NCBI RefSeq assembly: GCF_000316605.1
Contig: NC_019683.1
Location: 478,036-542,035 of the forward strand
DNA from: [Leptolyngbya] sp. PCC 7376
GTDB taxonomy: Bacteria > Cyanobacteriota > Cyanobacteriia > Cyanobacteriales > MRBY01
Length of the DNA: 64,000 nucleotides
Direction of reading: 5' to 3'
The notes under the pieces are model-generated. The model was given only the letters and a program-made list of their open reading frames with translations. It made no database searches and was not told where the DNA came from. Made by a program: the position numbers and the translations under genes. Shown piece after piece: positions 3,811 through 29,891 of the stretch (position 1 is its first letter; each line of letters opens with the position of its first letter).

Positions 3811-3958
3811 AATTGTCCTGAAAACTTAGGGGATATAAGCCTATAGGTTATCATTTATGCTGCATTCCTCTAATGAGTGGATAGCAAGCATTTTGACCTC
3901 ATGGGAAGAGATATTAACGATTAAGCTTACGCATTAATGTCTCTTCCCAGAGCGTCAT

Positions 3959-8631: not shown

Positions 8632-8653
8632 AACAAGCTTAATTCTCCAGATA

Positions 8654-8681
8654 TCCTCCTAATTTAGGGAGGATTTTTTTT
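8654..8681 (+). terminator. rho-independent terminator after DUF1517 gene
   Basis: tcctcc-taattta-gggagga hairpin followed by 8 T. Confidence 0.6.
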
Positions 8682-8690
8682 GCCCAATTT

Positions 8691-15973: not shown

Positions 15974-16744
15974 CTATAAACCCGGTTGAGTTTGGGCAAA
16001 TAGAGCGGAGAAATTATTGGTGACTGTTGCTTGAGATTCCGGCTTGGTTACCACATCAAATGCTTTATTGCGGGCATTGGGTTCGAGTAAAGCTTGCACT
16101 ACAACTTCTGCAACATCCGCGCGAGGAATGCCTGTTGTTATGCCATCAGGAGTGTTCTTGAGCAAGACATCATTTTTGCTGACGACGAGTTCTCGTTTAC
16201 CACCTTTTTCGTTGAGCAAACCACCTGCCCGAACGATGGTGTAGTCAATGCCGGAGTCGACAAGATATTGCTCTGCCTTGCGTTTCCAAATCAAAATATT
16301 GCCGTTGCCGAGGGTATTCAGAAAATGATTTTCGTCAGTACCGCCCATCGAACCAATGAGCACAATATGCTGAACTCCAGCCTTTTTTGCGGCATTAATT
16401 TGGTTAAGCTGACCTTGATAGTCAATCTGTTCGGGCATTTCTCCGTCTGGAAAGGCGAATTCTGGCCGTTGTCCGGTTTGGGAAGGCGCTTTCATTTGAG
16501 GTGTTGCGCTGGTGAGAATCACTAAGGCATCACAGCCTACAATAGCTGTCTCAAGAGCCTGTGTTTCCAGAATGCTACCGAAGTAAAAATTCTCAGTGGA
16601 GCCAAATATTTCTGTGGCTTTCTGAGGCGATCGCCCAAAGCATTTAACCGAAAATTGCTTTGGTAATGCTTGCAGCTTTTGAACGACTAAGGAGCCTGTG
16701 CGTCCAGTGGCACCAGTGACAAGAATTTGGAGAGGATTAGACAT
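15974..16744 (-). CDS. NAD(P)H-binding atypical SDR (NmrA-like) oxidoreductase
   Basis: Start at MSNPLQILVTGATGRTGSLVVQKL (GxxGxxG); intact paralog of the two truncated fragments at 29.4 and 33.4 kb. Confidence 0.8.
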   Translation of the reverse strand: MSNPLQILVTGATGRTGSLVVQKLQALPKQFSVKCFGRSPQKATEIFGSTENFYFGSILETQALETAIVGCDALVILTSATPQMKAPSQTGQRPEFAFPDGEMPEQIDYQGQLNQINAAKKAGVQHIVLIGSMGGTDENHFLNTLGNGNILIWKRKAEQYLVDSGIDYTIVRAGGLLNEKGGKRELVVSKNDVLLKNTPDGITTGIPRADVAEVVVQALLEPNARNKAFDVVTKPESQATVTNNFSALFAQTQPGL

Positions 16745-16916
16745 TCCGGTTAACAGCAAATAAAAATAGCAATACCAAGCCATACTCTAAAGTAATCGTC
16801 AGTCTTAAACAAACTCCTAACATGAGTTATTGACTCTAGAAAGTGTGGCATCTTCTGGGGCGATCGCCATACTTGATTGAAAAAAATAGAGACAATCCAA
16901 TATCTCTAGATTATCT

Positions 16917-17336
16917 ATGATGAAACATATGGATTTAAATCAAGCATTTAACCAAATACGAACTTTAGGAACGAATGGCATCAATTGCGATGTGACGACA
17001 GAAAATATTATTGAACGCCTATCAACATGGTCAAAGAATTTTGAGTTCGATGTTTTAGAAATCGATTATGCCACAGTGAAATTAGCTTTCAAGACAATGC
17101 CGAAAGAGCTGCGTAAATTTTGCGAAGAAGTCTATGAGTTTTGCCCTGACACTATTGATCAAGGATATGGCTGTTTAATGGATCTCATCGAGATCGCGGA
17201 GGCACATGGGCAACAGATACCACCTGAAAATCTAGAGCTAATGGAAGGGCTTGATCCAGATTCCGATGATTTTGGATTAGAGGTGATGCAGAGAGATTTA
17301 TTAAGGACAAAGACATTAACGCTTTGGTGGGATTAG
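16917..17336 (+). CDS. hypothetical protein (139 aa)
   Basis: ORF with RBS; acidic; no family recognised; preceded by a repeated ~70-bp element. Confidence 0.4.
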   Translation: MMKHMDLNQAFNQIRTLGTNGINCDVTTENIIERLSTWSKNFEFDVLEIDYATVKLAFKTMPKELRKFCEEVYEFCPDTIDQGYGCLMDLIEIAEAHGQQIPPENLELMEGLDPDSDDFGLEVMQRDLLRTKTLTLWWD

Positions 17337-18041
17337 TCTAAACTTACCCTCTTGAAAATACTTCGATGATCAAGAGCTAATTGACTCTAGAAATTGTGTA
17401 ATCCGTTGAGGCGATCGCCATACTCAATAAAAAAGGTTAGAGAGAATTCTTTATTGCTAATTTATTCATGCTTGAAGTATATAGTTAGTGTTCTGAAAAG
17501 ATTGCTTTATTCAAAGTTCGTGGCATTCGGATTTAGATCTACTTTTGATTGAAAAAATATAGGCTTAAAAATCGTTGATAATAGAGTGCCGCTATAAGAT
17601 GGAAATCGAAAATACTTATCTCTGGAAGAATTTAAAGATAGTGTAAATGGTTTTTCGTTATTGCTTGAATTGTTAAAGAATAATGAAAAAAGAGATTTGT
17701 TATAATAGTCTTAGTAAAGTGTCAGTCTAAAGAAATTGGAGGTGAATCCAATTCTCTGTTGTAACTTATTAAGATCTTTTCTTGGAAGCCAAATGATCGT
17801 AAGCTGCCGCCTATGGCGACCTTTCGTCAAGGTGATCGATTGTGTTTTTGTAAGATCTTATAGACTAGCCTTTCGGTAACAGGATATTTGTGAGGTGATA
17901 GGTGATTCTATTGCCTTCTGATTAAAACTTTAAAGAAACAAGTCCACATTGATTTTCTGAATAGGACTTGCTCAAAAAGTTTCACTTCGCAGTAAATACT
18001 CCTGTTTCAAAAGTGCATAAGGCAGTATTTTCTGATTTGAG

Positions 18042-18257
18042 GTGAAGACAATGACAGATAATCCAAGTACGCTCCGAATGGAGCAGCAGTTTCGTTTGAA
18101 GATGTTAGGCGATGCAGTGAAAGGTGCTAGCCATGAGCAACTAGAGGAGCTTTTTCTCGAAGCTTCGAGGCAGTTGATGTTAAAAGATAACTGGATTCAT
18201 CAAATGTTCAGAGAATGTCATTTTTCTGGATTCCCTGGTTTGAAAAAATCAACATAG
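18042..18257 (+). CDS. nblA: phycobilisome degradation protein NblA
   Basis: Matches NblA consensus: ...LRMEQQFRLKML...SHEQLEELFLEASRQLMLKDN..MFRE; approximately 60-70 aa; long AT-rich leader upstream. Confidence 0.75.
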   Translation: MKTMTDNPSTLRMEQQFRLKMLGDAVKGASHEQLEELFLEASRQLMLKDNWIHQMFRECHFSGFPGLKKST

Positions 18258-18552
18258 GTAAAAAATAACTAGGACTGAAGTAATCCTTTATCAGTAAATC
18301 GTTGATAGGGAAGTATTTTTCGTGAAGAGATATAGGTTGCATAATGCTTCCCTAATTGACGATCGTCCTTTAGTAGCCAGGTAAAGTCGAGAGTTTATCT
18401 GATATTTGGGTTTGTGGCAGTAGAAAAAGTCTATGCCGTAGTAAATTGTGCTGGCTGAATAATGAGATAAAGCTCGGATTCTCGAAAAAAATATAGGCCG
18501 TTTTTTAATGTGGCTCCCTTGCGACAGGGATGTCCGGTCAGGAGGTTAAATT

Positions 18553-20562
18553 ATGTCAGTAATTAGTGATGAATTACAAGACAAAAAAAAGATTGTATTG
18601 GAAGATTTTTCTTTGGTTAATCAGTCAAAGAAATTAGAAAGGCATGAAATAAAAAGTCATATGGATGGTTTGAAAGAGTATTTTCGTGACCAAAAATCTC
18701 ACTTTGCAGGATATCAAGTTAACGCTGACTTTGATTATTCTGCTCTGTCTGATTTTTTGGAGTTCCATATTAATAATGTTGGTGACCCATTTGTCGCGGG
18801 CACCTATGGCATTCACTCACGGATGATGGAACGCCCTATCATCGAATTCTTTGCCAAACTTTTTCATGCAAAAGAGAAGGATTATTGGGGTTATGTGACT
18901 AGTGGTGGCACTGAGGCAAATATGTATGGTCTGTATACAGGCCGTGTTTTTCTAGAGTCAGAATCAACATCGTCTGTATCTCCCAAGCCCATCGCCTATT
19001 TTTCTGAGGAGACCCATTATTCGATCCGTAAGGCGCTGCGAATGTTGGCGATTGACTCTGAGATTATCTCGTCTACGCCAAAAGGATCTATCAAGGTATC
19101 CAAATTAATGGATGCCATTCTGCAAAGTGATATCGATGCGAATCCTCCTCTGATTGTGGTGACCATGGGGACATCCTTTAAATGTGCCTACGATGATTTG
19201 GAGGAGATTGTTAAACAATTGCGTCAACACCATATCGAGAAGTTTTACATTCATGTTGATGCGGCATTGAGTGGACTATTTCTACCTTTTCTTGAGGTGA
19301 GTCAGGAAAATGATCATGATGCTAAGCTCTCCACAAACAAGATTCCTATTTTCGATTTTCGTCTCCCCATCGGCAGTATCGCGGTCTCCGGACATAAGTT
19401 TATTGGGACGCCTTTTCCTTGCGCCATTTTTATGACGCTGAAAGGCAACATGAGGCATGAGTGGGAAAAAATTGACTACGTGGGTAGTCTTGATTCCACG
19501 ATGTCAGGGTCACGTAATGGGTTGGCTCCCATCTTCCTTTGGTATGCGATCGCCACAAAAGGATTTAGTGGATTGACTAAATATGCGTTAAAAATGCTCG
19601 AAACCGCAGACTATGCCGTTCAGCGGATTACCGATGCAGGCTTGAATGTTTGGAAAAATGATCTTGGTTTATCCGTGATCTTTGATCGTCCGCCGGAGTG
19701 GATTGTTCGCAAATGGTCTTTGGCAACGGTCGGAAATATGTCCCACATCTTCACGATGGGTCATGTCACTCATGAAATGATCGATGAACTTACCCAAGAT
19801 TTACAGCAAGCAAGGCAAACTGGGCTGCGGAAAGAACAGCTGCCGAGTCATCATGTTCCCGCATTGACGATGGATGCGACGAATATTCCAAGTGTTAATT
19901 TCAATTGTCGAACTGACTACGCTTTGGAGCATGTTAATTCGATTGACCTGAAAAAACTTGAGCCGTTTTTCGAGGATATGCCTGCTGATGCTTATCTCGA
20001 AGGTGGTTATCGATTCAGACGTTTTTCGCATATAGAAGTGGTTGGCGATCGCATTCATCGATTACCCCATGGCTATTTATTCCAGAGTCAAGATTACAAT
20101 CCCTTGCTAGGTGACGTGGTGAGAGATTATCCCGAATGTGACCAAGCATTGATTGATCTGCCTGATTTCCAGAAGTTGATATTTGAATTCTTTGAATTTG
20201 CGCGACTATGCACAACCTCCAATAAGATTGGTGTTCATCAAATTCGCACAATCGCCAGGATGGATCATGTTGGTCATCCTGCCCCAGAAGGTCGCCATCA
20301 AGATGGTGTGGATACGATCGGTATCTTTTGTTTGCGTCGCCACAACATTGAAGGAGCTGAAACCTCGCTATTTAAATCGAAGGATAGTGAGCAACCTGTG
20401 ATGACAAAAATCCTCAATCCTGGGGAATTACTCGTGGTCAGTGATCGCCAATATTTCCATTACACATCTCCCACCCGTGCACTCTCGACTGAGAACGGTA
20501 TTCGGGATGTATTTGTCCTCACTTGTCCTGACTTAGTCACGACAGAATTACCGAAACGATGA
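18553..20562 (+). CDS. bifunctional fusion: group-II PLP-dependent decarboxylase (histidine-decarboxylase-like) + C-terminal PF10014-type Fe(II)/2OG dioxygenase domain
   Basis: N-domain approximately 430 aa with SGHKFIGTPFPC PLP-lysine motif of the bacterial HDC type; C-domain approximately 235 aa with HQDG (HxD) and distal FHYTSP His, about 60% identical to the downstream stand-alone gene. Confidence 0.75.
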   Translation: MSVISDELQDKKKIVLEDFSLVNQSKKLERHEIKSHMDGLKEYFRDQKSHFAGYQVNADFDYSALSDFLEFHINNVGDPFVAGTYGIHSRMMERPIIEFFAKLFHAKEKDYWGYVTSGGTEANMYGLYTGRVFLESESTSSVSPKPIAYFSEETHYSIRKALRMLAIDSEIISSTPKGSIKVSKLMDAILQSDIDANPPLIVVTMGTSFKCAYDDLEEIVKQLRQHHIEKFYIHVDAALSGLFLPFLEVSQENDHDAKLSTNKIPIFDFRLPIGSIAVSGHKFIGTPFPCAIFMTLKGNMRHEWEKIDYVGSLDSTMSGSRNGLAPIFLWYAIATKGFSGLTKYALKMLETADYAVQRITDAGLNVWKNDLGLSVIFDRPPEWIVRKWSLATVGNMSHIFTMGHVTHEMIDELTQDLQQARQTGLRKEQLPSHHVPALTMDATNIPSVNFNCRTDYALEHVNSIDLKKLEPFFEDMPADAYLEGGYRFRRFSHIEVVGDRIHRLPHGYLFQSQDYNPLLGDVVRDYPECDQALIDLPDFQKLIFEFFEFARLCTTSNKIGVHQIRTIARMDHVGHPAPEGRHQDGVDTIGIFCLRRHNIEGAETSLFKSKDSEQPVMTKILNPGELLVVSDRQYFHYTSPTRALSTENGIRDVFVLTCPDLVTTELPKR

Positions 20563-20658
20563 GAGTGTTTTTGGCGCAAACATGCTCTCACTAACTTTGC
20601 TGTTTAGTTGGGCGATCGCCACATTTTTGAAGTATTCCAAATCCAAATAGGAGTAATC

Positions 20659-21363
20659 ATGTTGCAAACACGACAGACTCAAAACTTTAATTGCAAAACT
20701 GACTATGCGATTGAAAGCCTTAATGCCATTGATTTGGCAAAATTTGAACCCTTCTTTGAGAATCTCCCAGTCGATCCATATTTGGAGAGAGGGTATCGCT
20801 GCCGACGTTTTTCTCGTGTGCAAGTTTTGGGCGATCGCCTCTATCCATTAGCACCCAACTATTTCTCTCAAGGTCAAGATGGCAACTCATTACTAGGGGG
20901 GGCTGTACGAGAATATGCAGAATTAGAGCCAGAATTATTTACCTTGCCAGATTTTCAAAAATTAGTGCTTGAATTCTTTGATTTTGCCCGCCTTTGTTCT
21001 GGGTCTAGCGAAGTCGGTATCCACCAAATTCGTACTGTGGCGACGAGTGGACAACCTGCACAACCTTGTCCAGAAGGGATTCATCAGGATGGCGGGGAAA
21101 CTATGGGGATCTTTTGTCTGAGTCGTCAAAATGTTGATGGGGCGAAAACGTCTTTGTACACTTCCCCAGAGAGTAAGCCAATCATCACGAAAATTCTGAA
21201 TCCCGGTGAATTTCTTGTGATTAGCGATCGCCGATATTTCCATTACACATCTCCTTTCTTTGTGGATGATGCTGAGCGAGGTACAGGAATTAGAGATGTG
21301 TTTGTCTTTACGAGTCCGGGTTTAGTGATTACCGATTTTCACAAACCGATGTTGTCAACCTAG
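20659..21363 (+). CDS. PF10014-family Fe(II)/2-oxoglutarate dioxygenase (amino-acid hydroxylase, IDO/LdoA-like)
   Basis: Start at ATG 20659 (RBS ggagtaatc); HQDG facial-triad motif, YFHYTSP distal His; paralog of C-domain of upstream fusion. Confidence 0.7.
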   Translation: MLQTRQTQNFNCKTDYAIESLNAIDLAKFEPFFENLPVDPYLERGYRCRRFSRVQVLGDRLYPLAPNYFSQGQDGNSLLGGAVREYAELEPELFTLPDFQKLVLEFFDFARLCSGSSEVGIHQIRTVATSGQPAQPCPEGIHQDGGETMGIFCLSRQNVDGAKTSLYTSPESKPIITKILNPGEFLVISDRRYFHYTSPFFVDDAERGTGIRDVFVFTSPGLVITDFHKPMLST

Positions 21364-21408
21364 TTCAGCACATCGTTTATCCATACCGTTGCGATAGGAG
21401 AGAGTGTC

Positions 21409-22680
21409 ATGTCTTTTGATATTGATTGGATTCGCCAACAGTTCCCAGCACTAACCCAGAAACACAATGGGCAACCCGTCATCTTTTTCGATGGGCCGGG
21501 TGGGACACAGGTCCCTAATTCAGTGATTTCAGCGATGACAAACTATCTGGTGCACTCGAACGCCAATGCCCACGGTGCTTTTATCACGAGTGAACGTACC
21601 GATGCCACCATCACAGCGGCAAGGGAGGCGATGGCCGATTTTCTGGGTTGCGATGGTGATGAAATTGTCTTCGGTGCAAATATGACCTCGCTCACTTTTC
21701 GCTTTAGTCGGGCGATCGCCAGAGAACTAAAGGCGGGCGATGAAATTGTTGTGACGCGATTAGACCATGATGCTAATGTTGCGCCGTGGATGGCATTGGA
21801 GGAAAAAGAGGTTGTGGTGCGAATGGTGGATATCAACCCGAGTGATTGCACCTTGGATATGGCAGATCTTGAAAAGAAGGTGGGCGATCGCACAAAGTTA
21901 ATCGCGGTGGTCTATGCCTCTAACGCCAGTGGCTCGGTTAATAATATTCCGGCGATCGTTCGTTTAGCTCATCAGGTAGGGGCTTGGGTATTTGTTGATG
22001 CAGTGCATTATGCTCCCCATGGTTCGATCGATGTGCGGGCAATGGACTGCGATTTTCTTGTTTGTTCTGCCTACAAATTTTTTGGCCCCCATGTCGGTAT
22101 TCTCTACGGCAAACGGAAACATTTGGCACGTTTGCGTCCCTACAAAGTTCGACCTGCGGCGGATGTCGTTCCCTCTCGCTGGGAAACTGGCACACTGAAT
22201 TTTGAGGGGTTGGCTGGAGTCATCGGCACAATTGACTATCTGACTGAGTTGGGTCGTCGGGTATCATCTGCCCGTGGCGATCGCCATGCGCTTTTAGTTG
22301 CGGCTCTAGATGCGACTCGCCAATACGAACGAAAACTTTGCGAGCATTTAGTGATGGGATTGTTGCAGATATCGGGGGTCACCATCTATGGCATTACGGA
22401 ACTGGTACATTTTGATTGGCGTGTCCCCACTGTTTCAATTCATCTGCAAGGATATACGCCCTATGAACTGGCTAAAGCATTAGGCGATCGCGATATTTTC
22501 ACTTGGCACGGTAATGTTTATGCTCTCAATCTCACTGAGCGGTTGGGTATTGAATCAAAGGGTGGTTTTTTGCGGATTGGTTTAGTTCACTACAACACAT
22601 TGGCAGAGATAGATCGGCTATTGGCAACTCTCCAGGCGATCGCCCCAAAGTTATCCCTCATCATTCCTGCACTGTTATAA
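21409..22680 (+). CDS. class-V aminotransferase-fold PLP enzyme (cysteine desulfurase/SufS-CsdA-like)
   Basis: 423 aa; PLP-Lys context SAYKFFGPHVGILYG; class-V fold N-terminal motifs. Confidence 0.8.
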   Translation: MSFDIDWIRQQFPALTQKHNGQPVIFFDGPGGTQVPNSVISAMTNYLVHSNANAHGAFITSERTDATITAAREAMADFLGCDGDEIVFGANMTSLTFRFSRAIARELKAGDEIVVTRLDHDANVAPWMALEEKEVVVRMVDINPSDCTLDMADLEKKVGDRTKLIAVVYASNASGSVNNIPAIVRLAHQVGAWVFVDAVHYAPHGSIDVRAMDCDFLVCSAYKFFGPHVGILYGKRKHLARLRPYKVRPAADVVPSRWETGTLNFEGLAGVIGTIDYLTELGRRVSSARGDRHALLVAALDATRQYERKLCEHLVMGLLQISGVTIYGITELVHFDWRVPTVSIHLQGYTPYELAKALGDRDIFTWHGNVYALNLTERLGIESKGGFLRIGLVHYNTLAEIDRLLATLQAIAPKLSLIIPALL

Positions 22681-23235
22681 ATGACTATTGTAGCTGGAAC
22701 ACTCATATTGACTTTGGCACCATTGTTTTAATTTGATTTAATACGTTTGATTTGCCATCAAAAAATAACGCAGATAAGTATTAGATTAGAGATGCTGATT
22801 CCGAGCTTATTGCAATCGAAATTGCTTTCTTTTTGTTGTTGCTTAAAGCAGGAAGAAACAGAGAGACAAACTACACAAAAGACTACACAAAACCTGACAC
22901 TCTCTAAAAGAATGAATACAATAGATGTAATAGCGTTCAATTTTTGGATTCTAGTCATGACGGGTCGATTTCGATATAAAAACCGTCAATAATGATTGTG
23001 TTAGCTGCTATTGATGAGTTCCCTAAATCCATTTGAAAATTTATCTGTCAATAAACTTCTCAGCTAACCCTATAAGTTTTTCTGTTTTTTGTTTCTAATG
23101 ATTTTAGTGGATTTCAAGGCGTCGATCTACCCAGAATAAAGCTCCCGAATTCAATAGAAATGGGCATTCTCAGTTCATTCTGATGTTTTTTGTTGCTTGA
23201 ATTTAACTCTGAAAATGATTTGCTGGGAGGGGATT

Positions 23236-24195
23236 TTGACTAAAGTAGAAAGTATTTTAATTACCGGTGCTAATGGTCAGATTGGAAGTGATTTAGCGAT
23301 CGCCCTGCATGACTATCATGGCGTGAAAAAAGTAATTGAAACTGGCCGCCGACTCCCCTCTAACTCAGGCGCAAATCGCCAGTCGTATCGGATTCTGGAC
23401 GTCACAGATATATGGCGACTGCAAGAACTTGTAGAGCAAGATCATATTGATACCATCTATCATCTCGCAGGGGTGTTGTCGGCAACGGGGGAAATGCAAC
23501 CTTATCGTTGCTGGCAGGTAAACATCGAGGGTCTCAGAAATGTTCTGGAAGTGGCGAAAGCGCACCAAGTGAAAGTGTTTTGGCCAAGTTCGATTGCTGT
23601 GTTTGGGGCGAATACTCCCAAGATTAATACTCCCCAAATCGTGATCGAAGATCCTTCCACCATGTATGGCATTACAAAATCTACAGGGGAAATGCTTTGC
23701 CACTATTACGCTGATCGATTTGGCGTGGATGTACGCAGTCTGCGTCTACCCGGCATCATTAGCCATCGCACTTTGCCCGGAGGCGGCACGACGGATTTTG
23801 CAGTAGAAATCTTTTACGATGCACTCAAATTTGGCAATTACAGTTGTTTTGTCCGCCCTGATACTCGCTTACCAATGATGTATATGCCGGATGCGATCGC
23901 CGCTATTTTGGGTCTGATGGATGCGAAATCTGATTCGATTACCGTTCGCTCTAGCTATAACATTGCCGCTGTCAGTTTTTCCGCCGCAGAACTCGTTGCA
24001 GAGATTCAAAAGCATTTGCCTGATTTTAGTTGTGATTATGCTCCCGATTTCCGGCAGGCGATCGCCGATTCTTGGCCAATGGTAATTGATGATTCCCAAG
24101 CGCGGCAGGATTGGGGGTGGCAACATCATTATGATTTGTCGGCAATTGTGACAGATATGCTCCAGCAACTGTCTCGCAAAGGTATTGGCAATTAG
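23236..24195 (+). CDS. tdh: L-threonine 3-dehydrogenase, NAD-dependent epimerase/dehydratase-fold type
   Basis: [14 protein letters not shown] Rossmann, YxxxK; TTG start at 23236 preferred (GGGAGGGG RBS); followed by kbl. Confidence 0.7.
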
Positions 24196-24236
24196 TTAGA
24201 GACAGGTTTTATGTCGAAATAGCAGGAGATACCACG

Positions 24237-25469
24237 ATGATGAAAACAGCTTCCCCCGTCTTTCAGTCAATTTTGGCAGAGATTCGCCAGTCCGGTCTGC
24301 ATAAAGAAGAACGCATTCTTATATCGCCTCAGGGAACCGATATTTCTGTGAGCACAGGGCTAGACGTGATTAACTTTTGTGCAAATAACTATTTAGGGTT
24401 GTGCAATAGTCCAGAGCTGGTGGCGATCGCCCAGGAAGGTCTTGCTAAATATGGTTTTGGTCTGTCTTCGGTGCGATTTATCTGCGGTACTCAAACTATC
24501 CATAAAGAGTTAGAAGCGAAGATTTCACAGTTTCTCGGCACAGAAGATACCATTCTCTATGGGTCTTGTTTTGATGCCAATGGTGGCTTGTTTGAAACGC
24601 TTTTAGATGATGACTGTGCGGTATTTAGTGATGCTCTTAACCATGCCAGCATTATTGATGGATTACGGTTATGCAAAGCGAAATGTTATCGCTATAACCA
24701 CAGTGATATGGCGGATTTGGAGCAGGCTCTACAGCAAACTCAGTCTGCCAAAATTCGATTAATTGCCACCGATGGTGTCTTTAGCATGGATGGGGAGATC
24801 GCCAAGTTAAAGCAAATCTGCGATTTAGGCGATCGCTATGATGCTTTAGTGATGGTCGATGATAGTCACGCCACTGGTTTTTTCGGTGCAACAGGTCGAG
24901 GCTCTATCGAATACTGCGGTGTAATGGGTCGAGTCGATATTATTACCAGCACGCTGGGTAAAGCTTTGGGCGGAGCTTCGGGGGGCTTCACTTCCGGTCG
25001 CCAAGTCATTATTGATTTATTGCGTCAGCGATCGCGCCCTTATTTATTTTCCAATAGTCTGGCTCCAGTCATTGTTTACACGAGTCTCAAAGCGTTAGAG
25101 ATAATTGAGCAGAATCGAGAGTTAGGCGATCGCCTTGCTGAGAATACCCACTATTTTCGCCAGAGGCTAACGGATTTGGGTTTTGATATTAAACCTGGTA
25201 TCCATCCGATTGTGCCGATTATGCTTTACGAGGCTCAACTGGCCAAAGATATGTCCCGCGATTTGCTGGAAGAGGGGATTTATGCCATTGGTTTTAGCTA
25301 TCCGGTTGTGCCCAAAGGTCAGGCTCGCATTCGTCTACAGATTTCCGCTGCCCATACCCGCAAACATCTCGATCGTTGCATTGATGCATTAGCTCGAATT
25401 GGCAGAAAGTATGGTGTTATCTCAGATAAAATTCCTGTCCTAGCCGAGCACACGAGTCGAGGAGGTTGA
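24237..25469 (+). CDS. kbl: glycine C-acetyltransferase (2-amino-3-ketobutyrate CoA ligase)
   Basis: alpha-oxoamine synthase family; PLP-Lys in STLGKALGG; 410 aa. Confidence 0.85.
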
Positions 25470-25470
25470 G

Positions 25471-26685
25471 ATGACTGTCACGCTTCAGGATATTCGCAAG
25501 GCTGCTGAGATTATTCATGAACGAGTATCAAATACGCCCTGTCGTCAGTCGCGATCGCTATCGGAACTGGTTGGCACAGAAGTTGTACTGAAATTTGAAA
25601 ATCTGCAATTTACTGGCTCATTTAAAGAGCGTGGTGCTTTGGTGAAATTGCTGTCTTTAAATGCAGCACAACGAGAAAAAGGCATTGTGGCAATGTCTGC
25701 GGGCAACCATGCTCAGGCTGTGGCTTATCAATCGAAACAGCTTGGTATTCCAGCAACGATTGTGATGCCAAAATTCACTCCCAATATCAAAGTGGAGCGT
25801 ACCCGTGCGTTTGGAGCTGAGGTGATCTTTCATGGGGATACCCTAGACGATTCGATTATGCTCGGACAAAAACTAGCCCATGAGCAGGGATTGCAGACGG
25901 TTCATCCCTACGATGACGAGCGCATTATTGCGGGACAGGGAACGATCACCCTTGAAATGTTGACCGTTTACCCTGAGCTGGATGTGCTCCTTGTGCCAGT
26001 GGGTGGTGGTGGTTTGATTGGTGGGAATGCGATCGCCGCAAAAAGTATAAAACCTGAGATCAAAATTATCGGCGTACAAACCCAGCGATTTCCTTCGATG
26101 TTCCGAGCTTTGCAAGGAGAGTTGGCAGTTTGCGGTAGTTCAACAATTGCGGAAGGCATTGCCGTAAAATCTCCTGGTCAATTGACGTTACCGATTGCGA
26201 GGGAATGGGTGAATGAGATTTTATTGGTGTCGGAAGCTGAGATTGAAAATGCCGTACGGTTTTTGTTAGAGCGAGAAAAAACGGTTGTCGAGGGAGCCGG
26301 AGCCGTTGGGGTTGCAGCCTTAATGAAATATGGCGATCGCTTTTCTGATCAGTCAGTGGGAATCATTCTGAGTGGTGGAAATATCGACTTACCGATTTTG
26401 TCCCGCATTGTGCAGCGGGGATTGGTGCGTTCCGGTCGATTGGTTCGGCTGGATGTAGATGTCAAAGATCTGCCGGGAGGATTGGCCGGAGTATCCCAAT
26501 GTATTGGTGATGCTGGCGCGAATATTATCGAAGTACAGCATCAGCGGGCATTTACTAGCTTGCCGCTTCAATCAGTCAATATTCAGTTTGTGTTGCAAAC
26601 GCGAGGAACGGAACACCTCCAGCAAATTATTGCCGCGCTTTTGGAACAAGGTTATCCAATTCATACTTCCCAACAAGTTGACTGA
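25471..26685 (+). CDS. ilvA: threonine ammonia-lyase (threonine dehydratase) with single C-terminal ACT-like domain
   Basis: FTGSFKERGA PLP motif, GGGGL loop, 404 aa; strong RBS gaggagg. Confidence 0.85.
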   Translation: MTVTLQDIRKAAEIIHERVSNTPCRQSRSLSELVGTEVVLKFENLQFTGSFKERGALVKLLSLNAAQREKGIVAMSAGNHAQAVAYQSKQLGIPATIVMPKFTPNIKVERTRAFGAEVIFHGDTLDDSIMLGQKLAHEQGLQTVHPYDDERIIAGQGTITLEMLTVYPELDVLLVPVGGGGLIGGNAIAAKSIKPEIKIIGVQTQRFPSMFRALQGELAVCGSSTIAEGIAVKSPGQLTLPIAREWVNEILLVSEAEIENAVRFLLEREKTVVEGAGAVGVAALMKYGDRFSDQSVGIILSGGNIDLPILSRIVQRGLVRSGRLVRLDVDVKDLPGGLAGVSQCIGDAGANIIEVQHQRAFTSLPLQSVNIQFVLQTRGTEHLQQIIAALLEQGYPIHTSQQVD

Positions 26686-26795
26686 CAAAATTCTCCATCA
26701 GGGATTTTAAATTATGTTTGAATGGGCAAATGTAAAAAACAAAACTAACTGCCGATTGATTCAATGAATTTTGCGATTTCGTTGGGCAATCATCT

Positions 26796-27125
26796 CTAAA
26801 ATTTAATCCTTTGCAATGAGCTTAATAAGTTTGGAATATCGATCCGAATTACTTCCCACAAAATTGAAGAGTCTACTTCTTTGTATTCATGAATGACGCG
26901 ATTTCGCATGCCGCGAATTGCATGGAATGGTATTTGAGGGTTTTCCGCAATGAATTTTGTAGAAAAGCGATTTGTTGTTTCTCCTAAAATCGCTATCTGA
27001 TATAGAACTGACGATTGTGTCTTTTTATCTTCCTCAAAGTTTGTATAGTTGTAGCCTTGGCTAAATTGCAAAATGAGATTACACGCTTCTATTGCATCTA
27101 GCAATATCTCTTGGTCTCGATTCAT
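26796..27125 (-). CDS. hepT: HepN (DUF86) HEPN-domain toxin of HepT/MntA-type TA pair
   Basis: Rx4HxY motif (RNRVIHEY); 109 aa; overlaps upstream MNT gene by 4 nt. Confidence 0.8.
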   Translation of the reverse strand: MNRDQEILLDAIEACNLILQFSQGYNYTNFEEDKKTQSSVLYQIAILGETTNRFSTKFIAENPQIPFHAIRGMRNRVIHEYKEVDSSILWEVIRIDIPNLLSSLQRIKF

Positions 27126-27490
27126 CGATTGTATAAAACCTGGCTGTGTTCAAGAATATTGCGGCGGCGGATTGGATTATGACTGTTTTCGATGGAATGG
27201 CGGGTCACAATGTCTATGGGGCGATCGCCAAAAAGCTCGCTAAATTCTTGTTCGATGGTATCGAGATTGAAAAAAGTAATCTTGGCATCTGCGGCAAAAC
27301 TAACCAACAAATCAATATCACTATCTATTCGAAAATCATCCCGCAGTACAGAACCAAAACAGGATAGCTCAGTAATTTTCCAACGTTGACAAATCTCTTC
27401 TAAAGCGCGGCTTGGGATTTTAACTGTTGGGTTTAATACGACAACCTCATCTGTCGAAACCATGGCGATCACCTCAAAATAAGATTGCAT
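27122..27490 (-). CDS. mntA: minimal nucleotidyltransferase (MNT) antitoxin
   Basis: GSVLRDDFRIDSDIDLLV nucleotidyltransferase motif (GS...DxD); 122 aa. Confidence 0.8.
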   Translation of the reverse strand: MQSYFEVIAMVSTDEVVVLNPTVKIPSRALEEICQRWKITELSCFGSVLRDDFRIDSDIDLLVSFAADAKITFFNLDTIEQEFSELFGDRPIDIVTRHSIENSHNPIRRRNILEHSQVLYNR

Positions 27491-27771
27491 TCTAATTATA
27501 AACAGTGCTACCTGAGTAAATTTTGTCTAGTGATAATGAAATGCGAGAACAAAATCAAGAGCTGGTTTATTCGAGGAATTGTGAGATTTCTTGGGGCGAT
27601 CGCCGCGCTAAGTTCAAACGCAATAACGCCAAGACTGGGAATTGCTCTCGTCGCTCGCTAGTTCCTGCTATAAGATCTCTAATACTATTAAGGCGATCGC
27701 CACACCGTATCCTTTGGTCTTTAGTATGGAGGCTACAGGTATTTCGATTGATGTTCAGCTGAGAGAAAACC

Positions 27772-29322
27772 GTGCCGAGTGCTTCCGATGATTTCCAATC
27801 CTTCGCCGCATTGCAGCATCAGCTGAAAAAATGTTGGCAAGATGACGAAGAGCTAGAAACGGGTAACCAAGATATTTTAGTGATTCCGTCCTTTAGTATC
27901 GACCAGCAGGTTGGTCAGAACGTGCCAGGTTTCTTGCACTACGAGGAACGTTTACTCTTCTCTCTCATTCGGCTGCGTAATCCCCTCACTCGGCTCATCT
28001 ATGTCACCGCGCAGCCCCTCGCCCCTCTGATCATTGATTACTATCTCCAACTTTTATCGGGAATTCCGTTTTCCCATGCCCGCGATCGCCTGCTGCTGAT
28101 TACCACCTACGACACCTCTTACAAGCCACTAACAAAAAAAATTCTGGATCGACCCCGCCTCGTCGCTAAAATCCGACGGGCACTGCGTCCCAATCAGTCA
28201 TTTATGGTGTGTTATAACGCCACTGAGTTAGAAAAAGAACTCTCGGAAAAGCTCCAAGTGCCACTCTTTGCAGCTAGTCCAGACGTGAGTCACTGGGGTT
28301 CAAAAAGTGGTAGTCGTCAAGCTTTTGAGTTGGCAGAAATTCCATTCCCTGATGGTAGTCATCTCGTGAAAACAGTCCCAGATTTAGTTGAAGTCACAGC
28401 GTCGCTATGGCATCGAAAGCCGGAACTTCAGAGGATTGTAATTAAGCTGAATGAGGGGTTTTCCGGGGAGGGAAATGCAGTGCTTGATCTGCGCCCATTG
28501 CCTCCCGTTTCAACCCTGACTGAACGGCAAACATTAATTGCGAAAGCTTTACCGGAAATGAATTTCCAAGCAGCAACGGAAACTTGGGAACATTTTGCTT
28601 CACGAATTCCAGAACTTGGGGCGATCGCCGAAGCATTTATCGAAGGGGAAACCAAGCGATCACCGAGTGTGCAAGGGTTGATTTTGCCGAGTGGAAAGGT
28701 CGAAATTCTCTCTACCCATGATCAAATTTTAGGTGGGCAGGATGGTCAAATTTACTTGGGATGTACCTTCCCTGCTGCGGCAGAATATCGTCTCCAGTTA
28801 CAAATCCTCGGTTTAAAGGTCGGTGAAATTCTGGCAGCAAAGGGTGCAATGGAGCGCTTTGGTGTTGACTTTATCGCGACCCAACAGCCAGACAAATCCT
28901 GGGATCTCCAAGCAATTGAAATTAACCTCCGTAAAGGAGGAACAACCCATCCTCTGATGACCCTCAAGTTATTGACTAATGGTGAGTATGATTATCAATC
29001 AGGCTTATTTTTTACACCGCAAGGACAAGAAAAATACTACATTGCCTCTGATAATCTCCAGAAAAACCAATACCAAGGACTTTTGCCCAGTGATTTGATG
29101 GATATCATTGCGGCGCACGGCTTACATTTCGATAGCAGCACGAAAACAGGTACTGTATTTCATTTGATGGGAACCCTATCCCAACACGGCAAACTTGGCC
29201 TCACCAGTATTGGGAATTCACTGGCCGAAGCGGAAGCCCATTACCAACGTGTTGAAGAGGTGCTCGATCTAGAAACTTCTGGTTATTATGCAACCTCTAG
29301 CCATTTGCCTTTAACTTGGTAG
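27772..29322 (+). CDS. conserved hypothetical protein, possible ATP-grasp-like fold
   Basis: 516 aa, GTG start; weak ATP-grasp-like C-terminal motif (AIEINLRKGGTTHP); 3' end overlaps truncated SDR fragment on opposite strand. Confidence 0.4.
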   Translation: MPSASDDFQSFAALQHQLKKCWQDDEELETGNQDILVIPSFSIDQQVGQNVPGFLHYEERLLFSLIRLRNPLTRLIYVTAQPLAPLIIDYYLQLLSGIPFSHARDRLLLITTYDTSYKPLTKKILDRPRLVAKIRRALRPNQSFMVCYNATELEKELSEKLQVPLFAASPDVSHWGSKSGSRQAFELAEIPFPDGSHLVKTVPDLVEVTASLWHRKPELQRIVIKLNEGFSGEGNAVLDLRPLPPVSTLTERQTLIAKALPEMNFQAATETWEHFASRIPELGAIAEAFIEGETKRSPSVQGLILPSGKVEILSTHDQILGGQDGQIYLGCTFPAAAEYRLQLQILGLKVGEILAAKGAMERFGVDFIATQQPDKSWDLQAIEINLRKGGTTHPLMTLKLLTNGEYDYQSGLFFTPQGQEKYYIASDNLQKNQYQGLLPSDLMDIIAAHGLHFDSSTKTGTVFHLMGTLSQHGKLGLTSIGNSLAEAEAHYQRVEEVLDLETSGYYATSSHLPLTW

Positions 29323-29369
29323 ATGGTCATCGCTGGCAGGGTGATCGCCACTTCAAGATCCGTGGGGTT

Positions 29370-29546
29370 GAGAATGCTACCAAAGTAAAAGTTATCGGTA
29401 TTGCCAAAAATCTCAGTCGCTTTTTCCGGCGATCGCCCAAAACCTTTAGCGATAAATTTCTCTGGTAATGCTTGCAATTTCTGTAAAACGAGGGAGCCTG
29501 TGCGTCCCGTTGCGCCAGTCACCAAAACTTTGAGAGGAGTTGCCAT
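29370..29546 (-). pseudogene. truncated 5' fragment of NAD(P)H-binding SDR gene (paralog of 15974..16744)
   Basis: MATPLKVLVTGATGRTGSLVLQKLQALPEKF...GRSPEKATEIFGNTDNFYFGSIL then frame runs into unrelated sequence. Confidence 0.7.
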
Positions 29547-29573
29547 CTCGATTTATCACCAATGAAAATACTA

Positions 29574-29707
29574 AGAGGATGTCTGAAAAGGGTCTGACCG
29601 TAACTTTTGTCGAAATGAGTTGCACGTAAAAATAAGTACTTCAGGCGATCAACCTGGCGGAATTTACGCAGTATTTATCGAACATAAAGACTTTTCAGAC
29701 ATCCTCT
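29574..29707. repeat. 134-nt element bounded by perfect 17-bp inverted repeats (MITE-like / long hairpin)
   Basis: agaggatgtctgaaaag at 29574-29590 and its exact reverse complement at 29691-29707; intergenic, HIP1-free. Confidence 0.6.
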
Positions 29708-29891
29708 AAGCCACACCTTAAAGCAATCTGCTCCACGACATGAATCAGTGTGTGGGAGATTAATTTAGCGGGCGATCACTAATACAGCAAAACTTTACCG
29801 TATTTTTCTGTTGTGGCAAGGAGAATACGAGTGATTTTATCTCTAGTCTCTAATGGCTTAAGGTGTTTGGAAGCATCGATCCAAAATAACA

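What the first reader, a model, noticed from the sequence alone, without database searches (positions are those of the whole stretch)
18553..21363. Decarboxylase-dioxygenase fusion with a tandem stand-alone dioxygenase paralog
The 669-aa protein has a complete group-II PLP decarboxylase at its N-terminus, of the bacterial histidine-decarboxylase type (SGHKF PLP-lysine motif). Its C-terminus is an approximately 235-aa domain with an HxD...H facial triad (HQDG, then FHYTSP). That domain has the overall features of the PF10014 Fe(II)/2-oxoglutarate amino-acid hydroxylase family, which includes isoleucine 4-hydroxylase IDO and leucine 5-hydroxylase LdoA. The next gene (start 20659) is a free-standing paralog about 60% identical to that domain. 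A covalent decarboxylase-hydroxylase fusion next to a second hydroxylase suggests a short pathway making a hydroxylated biogenic amine or a modified amino acid. I do not recognise this fusion architecture from described systems.
Basis: partly seen in the sequence, partly recalled or inferred. Interest (0 to 1): 0.7.

Follow-up and report, generated by a model that had tools for sequence, protein, structure and literature searches.

The report
Decarboxylase–dioxygenase fusion in starvation-linked amino-acid operon
A cyanobacterium carries a real, very rare single protein joining an amino-acid decarboxylase to an iron/2-oxoglutarate oxygenase, and it sits in a gene cluster headed by the starvation gene nblA that looks like an undescribed route for breaking down amino acids.

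Summary
Window 18553-20562 (+) is one intact 669-aa ORF in [Leptolyngbya] sp. PCC 7376. It has a catalytically complete group-II PLP decarboxylase, a roughly 30-residue disordered linker, and a PF10014 Fe(II)/2OG dioxygenase. A stand-alone PF10014 paralogue, 59% identical, follows it.

The fusion is not a frameshift artefact. Two other fused proteins (60-62% identical) exist, and they are the only ones found among 5.8 billion protein clusters. The fused proteins are not monophyletic in either domain tree, which suggests at least two independent fusions.

The label 'histidine decarboxylase' is not established. The domain is closer to plant serine/alanine decarboxylases, and the specificity position carries Val.

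The context changes the interpretation. The usual partner of the dioxygenase, directly downstream in 49 of 87 loci, is a class-V PLP enzyme of the cysteine-desulfurase fold in which Tyr replaces the catalytic Cys. Its best solved relative is Fgm3, a gamma-hydroxy-amino-acid retro-aldolase. Tdh-Kbl, threonine ammonia-lyase, other amino-acid catabolic genes and nblA recur around the pair.

My best reading is a starvation-linked catabolic module: gamma-oxidation followed by Cbeta-Cgamma cleavage. In three lineages the decarboxylase became tethered to the oxygenase. The substrate and the order of reactions are unresolved.

The parts
18051..18257 (+). nblA (phycobilisome degradation protein, 68 aa), 295 nt upstream of the fusion on the same strand
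   Evidence: PF04485 at 49.1 bits, cutoff 25. An NblA HMM finds nblA next to the dioxygenase/decarboxylase module in 9 of 80 genome loci, and also in L001, L009 and L013.
18553..19830 (+). Fusion protein, N-terminal group-II PLP decarboxylase domain (residues 1-426). Key residues: V56 at the specificity position, H155, D236, K282 (PLP lysine), Y309 (catalytic loop Tyr).
   Evidence: PF00282. Alignments to the solved SerDC, AlaDC and HDC structures. Residue mapping. Fold match to 8jg7, 8jij and 7erv.
19831..19923 (+). Inter-domain linker (residues 427-457)
   Evidence: pLDDT below 50 in the AlphaFold2 model. No conservation among the three fusions.
19924..20562 (+). Fusion protein, C-terminal PF10014 Fe(II)/2OG dioxygenase domain (residues 458-669). 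Facial triad H582/D584/H636, and invariant R651.
   Evidence: PF10014 at 201.5 bits. Invariant columns in alignment A1. pLDDT about 90, with fold matches to HrmJ, BelL, 8w8h and 3pl0 at TM 0.67-0.73. 74% identical to the unfused dioxygenase of L013.
20659..21363 (+). Stand-alone PF10014 dioxygenase paralogue (234 aa; H142/D144/H195, R212). It is the faster-evolving copy and occupies the ancestral position upstream of the class-V PLP gene.
   Evidence: Every homologue examined is closer to the fused domain than to this copy.
21409..22680 (+). Class-V PLP enzyme, TIGR01976 (VC1184) 'cysteine desulfurase-like' family. It lacks the desulfurase Cys, which is replaced by Tyr. This is the conserved partner of the dioxygenase.
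   Evidence: TIGR01976 at 491.6 bits, cutoff 352. Best solved relative is Fgm3, 9x4u. The Cys-to-Tyr replacement is conserved in 45 of 46 family members. The gene lies directly downstream on the same strand in 49 of 87 loci.
23197..24195 (+). L-threonine 3-dehydrogenase, SDR type. The likely true start is the TTG at 23236, preceded by GGGAGG.
   Evidence: 337-386 bits to solved TDHs. Sequence read. Syntenic with the dioxygenase-PLP pair in 12 loci.
24237..25469 (+). Glycine C-acetyltransferase (Kbl)
   Evidence: TIGR01822 at 635.6 bits, cutoff 493.
25471..26685 (+). Threonine ammonia-lyase with one ACT domain
   Evidence: NF005600 at 584.8 bits, cutoff 496. PALP plus ACT domains.
27772..29322 (+). 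BesA/PGM1-like ATP-grasp ligase. Possibly linked to the module; membership is uncertain.
   Evidence: PF24923 plus PF18105. BesA model at 145 bits, against a cutoff of 750. Homologues 60-63% identical lie next to PF10014 genes in L063, L075, L078 and L088.

Best explanation
The 669-aa protein is a real bifunctional enzyme. Its N-terminal half is a catalytically complete group-II PLP amino-acid decarboxylase of the SerDC/AlaDC/HDC subfamily. The specificity residue is Val56, so the substrate is probably not His, Ser or Ala. A flexible linker joins it to a PF10014 Fe(II)/2-oxoglutarate dioxygenase that is orthologous to unfused enzymes widespread in cyanobacteria.

The protein belongs to an nblA-headed cluster of amino-acid catabolic genes: nblA, decarboxylase-dioxygenase fusion, dioxygenase paralogue, Cys-less class-V PLP enzyme, Tdh, Kbl and threonine ammonia-lyase.

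Inferred mechanism:
1. The dioxygenase oxidises the gamma (C4) position of a free L-amino acid. The substrate is most likely aliphatic (Leu, Ile, Val) or Thr.
2. The class-V PLP partner then breaks the Cbeta-Cgamma bond by a retro-aldol reaction of the Fgm3 type. This gives L-alanine, or a related 3-4-carbon amino acid, plus a carbonyl compound.
3. In the fusion, the tethered decarboxylase acts on the hydroxylated amino acid made by its own dioxygenase domain, or on the same amino-acid pool, and yields an amine.

The module would recycle amino acids released during phycobilisome degradation under nutrient starvation, when the co-substrate 2-oxoglutarate is abundant.

What is shown: the architecture, the catalytic residues, the rarity and polyphyly of the fusion, and the gene associations. 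What is inferred: the reaction types, the substrate, the order of steps and the physiological role.
For: - Architecture and residues.
- Rarity: only P0001-P0003 are fused among 5.8e9 clusters. No representative among 1.84e9 matches both halves. Other long HDC-like proteins carry no dioxygenase domain.
- Polyphyly: the window's dioxygenase domain groups with the unfused L013 enzyme (74% identity). Those of P0002 and P0003 group with unfused L007, L014, L015, L018 and L026 (73-81%). In the decarboxylase tree, 0 of 100 bootstraps make the fused proteins monophyletic. Repeated fusion argues for direct functional coupling.
- Conserved partner: the class-V PLP gene is directly downstream on the same strand in 49 of 87 loci. 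The pair also occurs in Chthoniobacterales and Methylocaldum.
- The partner is not a desulfurase: the SufS catalytic Cys is replaced by Tyr in 45 of 46 sequences.
- Its best solved relative is Fgm3 (188.6 bits), described as a PLP retro-aldolase acting on gamma-hydroxy-L-arginine (bioRxiv 10.1101/2023.03.21.533663).
- PF10014 enzymes characterised so far attack C4 or C5 of free L-amino acids: 4-hydroxy-Ile, 4-hydroxy-Leu and 4-hydroxy-Thr (PMC3684760; PMC7954711).
- Where the class-V gene is absent, an HpaI/GarL-type 4-hydroxy-2-oxoacid aldolase sits directly upstream (L019, L076, L085, L090), or a TnaA/TPL-family lyase sits directly downstream (L001, L018). All three partner families cleave the C3-C4 bond.
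- Catabolic neighbourhood: Tdh-Kbl in 12 loci; also HPPD, a homogentisate-dioxygenase-like gene, an acetoacetate/acetate-CoA-ligase-like gene, thiolase, acyl-CoA dehydrogenase, amino-acid dehydrogenase, arylpyruvate decarboxylase, aldehyde dehydrogenase, IDO and a kynureninase-like gene.
- nblA lies within the flanks of 9 of 80 genome loci, often as the first gene on the same strand less than 200 nt upstream.
- Order of steps: the fused dioxygenase keeps every invariant residue of the unfused clade. That clade is far more widespread (at least 565 genomic loci) than the decarboxylase clade (about 13 clusters; 10 close metagenome loci). The dioxygenase substrate therefore cannot depend on this decarboxylase.
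Against: - No biochemical data exist for any member of this dioxygenase clade, this PLP family or this decarboxylase clade.
- The PLP enzyme scores almost as well against true desulfurases (182 bits) as against Fgm3 (188.6 bits). The Tyr proposed as the general base in Fgm3 (Y225) aligns with Phe here.
- The TnaA-like and IDO neighbours may simply be a separate tryptophan pathway.
- The recurrent link with Tdh-Kbl is not explained by the proposed chemistry.
- The decarboxylase clade also occurs without a nearby dioxygenase (L009, L094-L096). Its substrate therefore need not be a dioxygenase product.
- A decarboxylation step has no obvious benefit for nitrogen recovery.
- No NtcA box (GTA-N8-TAC) lies upstream of nblA or of the fusion.
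- In this genome a 555-nt spacer with a promoter-like site separates tdh-kbl-ilvA from the upstream genes.
- The trees are simple neighbour-joining trees. Only the best 80 of at least 565 loci were examined.
Confidence: 0.4

Rival explanations
1. This is the first reader's reading: specialised biosynthesis. The fusion and the paralogue make a hydroxylated biogenic amine or a non-proteinogenic amino acid as a natural product, antimetabolite or signal. The product might be conjugated by the nearby BesA/PGM1-like ATP-grasp ligase, for example as a gamma-glutamyl derivative.
For: PF10014 enzymes occur in secondary-metabolite operons: IDO/AMKP, the Hil operon with its ATP-grasp ligase HilD (PMC3684760), and HrmJ/BelL. 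ATP-grasp homologues 60-63% identical to window 27772-29322 lie next to PF10014 genes in four Oscillatoriales loci. PCC 7376 is reported to make gamma-glutamyl dipeptides without a ggt gene, and to contain strain-specific unidentified betaines (PMC3826126). The fusion is patchily distributed, as accessory metabolism often is.
Against: No NRPS, PKS, exporter or tailoring genes surround the module in the window. The dioxygenase-PLP pair is widespread across cyanobacterial orders and highly conserved (PLP enzyme 65-77% identical). That pattern fits core or accessory primary metabolism better. Its neighbours are catabolic enzymes and nblA. In the window, a toxin-antitoxin pair on the opposite strand separates the ATP-grasp gene from the module.
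Confidence: 0.25
2. Decarboxylase first, oxygenase second. The amino acid is decarboxylated to an amine. The tethered dioxygenase then hydroxylates the carbon next to nitrogen, and the product collapses to an aldehyde plus ammonium. The result is a 2OG-driven way to strip nitrogen from amino acids during starvation.
For: In L013 the position between nblA and the dioxygenase-PLP pair is occupied by an amino-acid dehydrogenase, a 2-oxoacid decarboxylase and an aldehyde dehydrogenase. Together these achieve the same net conversion of an amino acid to an aldehyde plus CO2 and NH3. Tethering would prevent loss of a membrane-permeant amine. From general knowledge, 2OG rises under nitrogen starvation. 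Repeated independent fusion implies channelling of an intermediate.
Against: The fused dioxygenase domain is 74-81% identical to unfused orthologues in loci without this decarboxylase, and it keeps all clade-invariant residues. All characterised PF10014 enzymes use alpha-amino acids with a free carboxylate.
Confidence: 0.12
3. The two halves are functionally independent. A true histidine (or other) decarboxylase makes a biogenic amine such as histamine, and it happens to be fused to an unrelated hydroxylase only for co-expression.
For: NCBI names the protein histidine decarboxylase, and it passes NF002748. The decarboxylase clade occurs alone next to nblA or a universal stress protein. It also fuses to regulatory cNMP-binding or ACT domains.
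Against: NF002748 does not discriminate, because AtSerDC scores 460 bits on it. Val56 differs from the Glu of the solved bacterial HDC. The fused proteins are non-monophyletic in both domain trees, and the unfused genes are adjacent in L007. Chance is an unlikely explanation for both.
Confidence: 0.1
4. The fusion is an artefact or a decaying pseudogene.
For: None was found. Rarity alone might raise the suspicion.
Against: The ORF is intact in a finished genome. There are three independent fused sequences of nearly equal length. All catalytic residues are retained in both halves, and the dioxygenase domain folds with high confidence.
Confidence: 0.02

Closest known systems
Plant serine/alanine decarboxylases (AtSerDC 8JG7, CsAlaDC 8JIJ/8JIK) and the PLP-dependent bacterial histidine decarboxylase (Photobacterium 7ERV)
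   Same: The same group-II fold and subfamily: 247-280 bits and top fold matches. The same SxHK lysine, the same catalytic-loop Tyr and the same GY[PQ]X specificity motif.
   Different: The specificity residue is Val56, against Tyr in SerDC, Phe in AlaDC and Glu in HDC. In AtSerDC the Y111V mutation abolishes Ser decarboxylation and gives no Ala decarboxylation (PMC11407765). The clade has its own insertions, after GRVFLES and after LPFLE. It is fused to a dioxygenase. The substrate is unknown.
PF10014 free-amino-acid oxygenases: IDO, HilB, LdoA, L-threonine dioxygenase, HrmJ/BelL
   Same: The same Pfam family, HxD...H triad and DSBH fold. The family acts on C4/C5 of free L-amino acids.
   Different: The relationship is only distant: IDO 24.5 bits, HilB model 24 bits against a cutoff of 350, best solved relative 3PL0 at 61.6 bits. 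None of the known members is fused to a decarboxylase or paired with a TIGR01976 PLP enzyme.
Fgm3 of the fusaoctaxin pathway (PDB 9X4U), together with its upstream arginine gamma-hydroxylase
   Same: Best solved relative of the downstream PLP enzyme. It has the same cysteine-desulfurase-like fold without the catalytic Cys. The logic matches too: gamma-hydroxylation followed by PLP retro-aldol cleavage.
   Different: Similarity is only 188.6 bits, and the proposed Fgm3 base Tyr225 aligns with Phe here. Fgm3 belongs to a fungal biosynthetic pathway. From memory, the hydroxylase there is not a PF10014 enzyme. Here the context is catabolic and the substrate is unknown.
Hil and IDO operons (Pantoea, Bacillus thuringiensis)
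   Same: A PF10014 oxygenase works in tandem with a second oxygenase and a dehydrogenase on one free amino acid, and an ATP-grasp ligase is present in some operons.
   Different: In the Hil operon the two oxygenases belong to different families (PF13640 and PF10014). There is no decarboxylase and no class-V PLP enzyme. The proposed role there is antibiotic or quorum-related, not starvation catabolism.
Tdh-Kbl threonine degradation and catabolic threonine ammonia-lyase
   Same: The window genes at 23197-26685 meet the equivalog models and match solved TDH structures.
   Different: Their recurrent linkage to a PF10014 dioxygenase and a TIGR01976 PLP enzyme (12 loci) is not part of the textbook pathway. 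It remains unexplained.

Membership tests
[quoted passage not shown] | Profile match above the curated threshold | tested here: met
   84.4 bits against a cutoff of 27, residues 63-361.
[quoted passage not shown] | PLP-binding Lys in an S-x-H-K motif, Asp to the pyridine N, His stacking on the ring, and the catalytic-loop Tyr that protonates the carbanion | tested here: met
   K282, D236, H155 and Y309 align with the corresponding residues of the solved SerDC, AlaDC and HDC. All are invariant in the clade. The role of the Tyr is taken from PMC11407765.
Histidine decarboxylase (NCBIfam NF002748 equivalog) | Score above the cutoff, with the model specific for histidine | tested here: inconclusive
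   The window protein scores 381.7 bits against a cutoff of 305. The proven Arabidopsis serine decarboxylase scores 460 bits on the same model. The specificity position is Val56, not the Glu of Photobacterium HDC.
Serine / alanine decarboxylase | Tyr (Ser) or Phe (Ala) at the third position of the YPX motif | tested here: not met
   The motif is Y-Q-V, and the Val is invariant in the clade. The Y111V mutant of AtSerDC is inactive on Ser and Ala.
PF10014 Fe(II)/2OG dioxygenase | Profile match, HxD...H facial triad, conserved C-terminal Arg, DSBH fold | tested here: met
   201.5 and 183.2 bits. H582/D584/H636/R651 in the fusion and H142/D144/H195/R212 in the paralogue are invariant in A1. Fold TM 0.67-0.73 to HrmJ, BelL, 8w8h and 3pl0.
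IDO / HilB / LdoA amino-acid hydroxylases (specific orthology) | Equivalog-level similarity to a characterised hydroxylase | tested here: not met
   HilB model at 24.3 and 19.2 bits against a cutoff of 350. IDO 6LNH at 24.5 bits.
PF10014 Fe(II)/2OG dioxygenase | 2OG-dependent oxidation of a free L-amino acid | not testable with these tools
   Requires an enzyme assay.
Cysteine desulfurase (SufS/NifS/IscS), for the downstream gene 21409-22680 | Catalytic Cys on the active-site loop (..GHHCA..) | tested here: not met
   The Cys aligns with Tyr (WHGNVYA) in the window. The same replacement is seen in 45 of 46 family members.
TIGR01976 (VC1184) cysteine-desulfurase-like family | Score above the model cutoff | tested here: met
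   491.6 bits against 352.35. The family has no assigned function.
Fgm3-type PLP retro-aldolase | Close similarity, plus conservation of the proposed general-base Tyr225 | tested here: inconclusive
   Fgm3 is the best solved hit at 188.6 bits, but true desulfurases score 182 bits. The residue aligned with the proposed Tyr is Phe. A different conserved Tyr occupies the desulfurase Cys position.
L-threonine 3-dehydrogenase / Kbl / threonine ammonia-lyase | Equivalog scores or strong matches to solved enzymes | tested here: met
   TDH at 337-386 bits. Kbl at 635.6 bits against 493, and threonine ammonia-lyase at 584.8 bits against 496.
NblA | PF04485 match above threshold | tested here: met
   49.1 bits against a cutoff of 25.

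The most novel reading that the evidence does not exclude
The PF10014 dioxygenase and the Cys-less class-V PLP enzyme form an undescribed O2/2OG-dependent amino-acid cleavage pathway. Gamma-hydroxylation is followed by PLP retro-aldol cleavage to alanine plus a carbonyl compound. Cyanobacteria would co-express this pathway with nblA to dispose of amino acids released from phycobilisomes during chlorosis, possibly the branched-chain amino acids, for which most cyanobacteria lack the classical dehydrogenase complex. The repeated, independent fusion to a novel-specificity decarboxylase would create a channelled branch of this pathway.
Probability: 0.25. Interest if true: 0.8.

Novelty: new variant of a known kind. 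Interest (0 to 1): 0.6.

Why it matters
Both domains belong to well-known enzyme families. Their covalent fusion is undescribed, extremely rare, and appears to have arisen more than once, which is strong evidence that the two activities cooperate.

The fusion also led to a widely conserved but uncharacterised cyanobacterial gene pair: a PF10014 dioxygenase plus a TIGR01976 PLP enzyme. That pair is repeatedly embedded among amino-acid catabolic genes and is headed by nblA. What happens to the amino acids released when cyanobacteria dismantle their antennae under starvation is poorly understood, and so is how these organisms degrade aliphatic amino acids. This locus offers concrete, clonable candidates and a specific chemical hypothesis to test.

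There are two further practical points. The fusion supplies a decarboxylase of unknown specificity and new C-H-oxidising enzymes for biocatalysis. It has also already caused annotation errors, with stand-alone dioxygenases labelled 'histidine decarboxylase'.

Tried and rejected
- Rfam scan of 16500-30000 at E up to 1: no riboswitch or leader RNA.
- Promoter/terminator scan: counts no higher than in shuffled sequence, no convincing terminator between nblA and the fusion, and a single 10/12 promoter-like site before tdh.
- NtcA box GTA-N8-TAC: none upstream of nblA or the fusion, and the window-wide count is as expected by chance.
- Literature searches for PF10014, DUF2257, nblA with histidine decarboxylase, PCC 7376/Lepto7376, Fgm3 and PDB codes: no description of the fusion or of the dioxygenase-PLP pair. 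The MetDC specificity paper was not held.
- Search of 1.84e9 representatives for further, more distant fusions: none.
- Metagenome scan with the decarboxylase clade: only about 10 close loci, mostly short contigs. The other 70 were distant decarboxylases and uninformative.
- Small ORFs upstream of the fusions (39-83 aa): not conserved. The exception is a 44-aa ORF shared by L001, L018 and L101.
- Contexts of the PLP enzyme in Methylocaldum and two other genomes: no transporter or regulator that would reveal the substrate.
- Rejected: the PLP enzyme as a cysteine desulfurase (no Cys); the decarboxylase as a serine or alanine decarboxylase (Val56); the fusion as a frameshift artefact.
- Considered but not supported by the neighbours: a sulfur-scavenging role (desulfinase-type chemistry). 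No sulfur-metabolism genes accompany the pair.

Full report
**Source and observation.** The window comes from [Leptolyngbya] sp. PCC 7376. The protein of ORF 18553-20562 is 100% identical to a 669-aa protein on that strain's 5.1-Mb contig, where it is named 'histidine decarboxylase'. The ORF is uninterrupted and has a good ribosome-binding site. Pfam places PF00282 at residues 63-361 and PF10014 at residues 471-657, both far above threshold. The next gene (20659-21363, 234 aa) is a stand-alone PF10014 protein, 59% identical to the C-terminal domain. An AlphaFold2 model gives a confident dioxygenase domain (pLDDT about 90, residues 458-664), a moderately confident decarboxylase domain, and a disordered linker at residues 427-457. 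Foldseek matches the two halves to serine/alanine/histidine/methionine decarboxylases, and to the PF10014 structures HrmJ, BelL, 8W8H and 3PL0.

**Is the fusion real, and how rare is it?** Two other full-length fusions exist: P0002 (667 aa, 62% identity) and P0003 (664 aa, 60%). They lie on several independent contigs from MAGs and metagenomes. Among 5.8 billion clusters, every other relative is single-domain. In an exhaustive HMMER scan of 1.84 billion representatives, no protein matched both halves. Ten other unusually long HDC-like proteins carry no dioxygenase domain. The literature I could search does not describe the architecture.

**The fused proteins are not monophyletic.**
- In a neighbour-joining tree of the dioxygenase domains, the window's fused domain groups with the unfused enzyme of L013 (74% identity) and with the window paralogue.
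- The fused domains of P0002 and P0003 sit in another clade, next to unfused enzymes of L007, L014, L015, L018 and L026 (73-81% identity).
- In the decarboxylase tree, the three fused proteins were monophyletic in 0 of 100 bootstraps.
- In L007 the two genes are adjacent but unfused, and in the opposite order.

Either fusion happened at least twice or fission happened repeatedly. Both possibilities indicate that selection favours proximity of the two activities. These are simple distance trees, so the number of events is provisional.

**The decarboxylase half.** All catalytic residues of group-II decarboxylases are present and invariant in the clade: K282, D236, H155 and the loop Tyr309. The name 'histidine decarboxylase' is not secure.
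- The domain scores higher against plant serine/alanine decarboxylases (279-280 bits) than against the solved bacterial HDC (248 bits).
- The proven Arabidopsis serine decarboxylase scores 460 bits on the NCBIfam 'histidine decarboxylase' model, more than the window protein's 381.7 bits.
- At the position shown experimentally to set Ser or Ala specificity (AtSerDC Tyr111, CsAlaDC Phe106; PMC11407765), this clade has an invariant Val56, in a GYQV motif. The solved HDC has Glu there.
- In AtSerDC the Y111V mutation abolishes activity on Ser and gives none on Ala.

The substrate is therefore probably not His, Ser or Ala, and it is currently unknown. Relatives of this clade are fused to cNMP-binding or ACT domains. 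That suggests a regulated metabolic enzyme.

**The dioxygenase halves.** Both copies keep the HxD...H triad, the C-terminal RDVFV arginine and the other clade-invariant residues. They are only distant relatives of characterised PF10014 enzymes. Known family members oxidise C4 or C5 of free L-amino acids (Ile, Leu, Thr). From general knowledge, HrmJ and BelL abstract the C4 hydrogen of 6-nitronorleucine. Every homologue examined is closer to the fused domain than to the stand-alone paralogue. The paralogue is therefore the faster-evolving copy, even though it occupies the ancestral position just upstream of the PLP gene.

**Genomic context.** I fetched 80 genomic loci encoding relatives of the dioxygenase (at least 565 exist) and clustered all neighbouring ORFs without prior assumptions.
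- The dominant neighbour is the homologue of window gene 21409-22680. It lies directly downstream on the same strand in 49 of 87 loci.
- This is a TIGR01976 (VC1184) 'cysteine desulfurase-like' PLP enzyme. It is very conserved: 65-77% identity across cyanobacterial orders and 67-68% in the methanotroph Methylocaldum, where a PF10014 gene lies 3.5 kb away.
- It cannot be a desulfurase, because the catalytic Cys is replaced by Tyr in 45 of 46 members.
- Its best solved relative is Fgm3, reported as a PLP enzyme that performs a retro-aldol cleavage of gamma-hydroxy-L-arginine.
- Where this gene is missing, the dioxygenase is preceded by an HpaI/GarL-type 4-hydroxy-2-oxoacid aldolase (L019, L076, L085, L090) or followed by a tryptophanase/tyrosine-phenol-lyase family enzyme (L001, with overlapping stop and start; L018).

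All three alternative partners belong to families that cleave the C3-C4 bond of amino or 2-oxo acids. A family of gamma-C-H oxidising enzymes paired with Cbeta-Cgamma-cleaving enzymes is chemically coherent. This is the basis of my mechanistic proposal. It is an inference, not a demonstration. Similarity to Fgm3 barely exceeds similarity to true desulfurases, and the Tyr proposed as the Fgm3 base is Phe here.

**A catabolic, starvation-linked neighbourhood.**
- Threonine dehydrogenase and Kbl accompany the pair in 12 loci from several subclades and in different arrangements. In the window a threonine ammonia-lyase follows them.
- Other loci add 4-hydroxyphenylpyruvate dioxygenase, a homogentisate-dioxygenase-like protein, an acetoacetate/acetate-CoA-ligase-like enzyme, thiolase and acyl-CoA dehydrogenase.
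- Further additions are an amino-acid dehydrogenase with an arylpyruvate decarboxylase and an aldehyde dehydrogenase, and indoleamine dioxygenase with a kynureninase-like gene.
- nblA, the trigger of phycobilisome degradation, lies 295 nt upstream of the fusion in the window.
- An NblA HMM finds nblA in the flanks of 9 of 80 genome loci (1.33 Mb in total). It is often the first gene on the same strand, less than 200 nt upstream of the PLP gene, the dioxygenase gene or the CoA-ligase gene. It also lies next to the decarboxylase-only locus L009 and the fusion locus L001.
- If a genome carries at most about three nblA copies per 5 Mb (general knowledge, not tested), fewer than one occurrence would be expected in that much sequence.

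I therefore read 18051-26685 as part of an amino-acid recycling island expressed with nblA. There are caveats. No NtcA box was found. In PCC 7376 a 555-nt AT-rich spacer with a promoter-like site separates tdh-kbl-ilvA from the upstream genes. No expression data exist.

**How the fusion most likely works.** The fused dioxygenase domain is 74-81% identical to unfused orthologues, and the dioxygenase clade is far more widespread than the decarboxylase clade. Its substrate must therefore be available without the decarboxylase, presumably a free L-amino acid as for all characterised family members. The likeliest order is oxidation first and decarboxylation second, giving a hydroxy-amine. Alternatively, both domains draw on one amino-acid pool. 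The diverged paralogue and the PLP enzyme would carry out the conserved oxidation-cleavage route. A 4-hydroxy amino acid can be toxic (4-hydroxythreonine). From general knowledge such compounds also lactonise readily, which would give a rationale for tethering.

The reverse order remains a minority possibility. In it, decarboxylation is followed by oxidative deamination of the amine. This is attractive for nitrogen recovery and parallels the dehydrogenase/2-oxoacid-decarboxylase set that occupies the same position in L013. It is supported mainly by the nearby BesA/PGM1-like ATP-grasp ligase, whose homologues neighbour PF10014 genes in four Oscillatoriales loci, and by reports of unusual gamma-glutamyl dipeptides and betaines in this strain.

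**Unexplained points.**
- The identity of the substrate.
- Why Tdh-Kbl repeatedly joins the dioxygenase-PLP pair.
- What a decarboxylation contributes to catabolism.
- Why the decarboxylase clade also occurs alone, next to nblA or a universal stress protein.

**Verdict.** The feature is real, intact and rare. It is a new variant built from known enzyme families, namely a new fusion with probably new substrate specificities. It also points to a conserved, uncharacterised and experimentally tractable cyanobacterial module. Confidence is high for the anatomy, moderate for the catabolic, nblA-linked setting, and low to moderate for the specific chemistry.

Noticed in passing
window 18051-18257: nblA lies immediately upstream of the fusion on the same strand. 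The same adjacency recurs with the dioxygenase/PLP pair or the decarboxylase in many other cyanobacterial loci, often with nblA as the first gene of the cluster.
   Followed up: yes
window 27772-29322: A BesA/PGM1-like ATP-grasp ligase. Homologues 60-63% identical sit next to PF10014 genes in L063, L075, L078 and L088. PCC 7376 is reported to make gamma-glutamyl dipeptides although it lacks ggt (PMC3826126), so this ligase is a candidate source.
   Followed up: partly
window 26796-27490 (- strand): A HepT-like RNase plus MNT nucleotidyltransferase toxin-antitoxin pair lies between the threonine ammonia-lyase gene and the ATP-grasp gene.
   Followed up: no
P0126: A 234-aa stand-alone PF10014 protein is named 'histidine decarboxylase' by JGI. 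The name was apparently transferred from the fused protein, which makes this an annotation error propagated by the fusion.
   Followed up: no
P0014, P0017, P0019-P0024, P0069, P0093, P0097: Relatives of the same decarboxylase clade are fused to cNMP-binding domains, ACT domains or a class-IV aminotransferase domain. This suggests ligand-regulated or multi-step variants.
   Followed up: no
window 22681-23235: A 555-nt AT-rich spacer with the best promoter-like site of the region (22894-22922) lies between the PLP gene and tdh. In other genomes the same two genes are only 30-130 nt apart. The mechanical 81-aa ORF at 22747-22992 has no Pfam match.
   Followed up: partly
L174 (Methylocaldum), 3792-4463 and 8001-9254: A gammaproteobacterial methanotroph carries the PLP enzyme at 67-68% identity to the cyanobacterial ones, plus a PF10014 gene immediately after the succinate dehydrogenase operon. 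Horizontal transfer of the pair is likely.
   Followed up: partly
L001 9472-9606; L018 6367-6498; L101 795-926: A 44-aa ORF (MNQAQELAKTQKNLPKEDSG...) is conserved at 43-55% identity upstream of the fusion or decarboxylase, or within the catabolic cluster, in three loci. It has no counterpart in the window.
   Followed up: partly
L094 2116-2688; L095 2055-2627: In these loci the unfused decarboxylase is followed, with overlap, by a universal stress protein (PF00582) gene.
   Followed up: no
window 40055-45457 (- strand): A very large ORF of 1800 aa. It was not examined.
   Followed up: no
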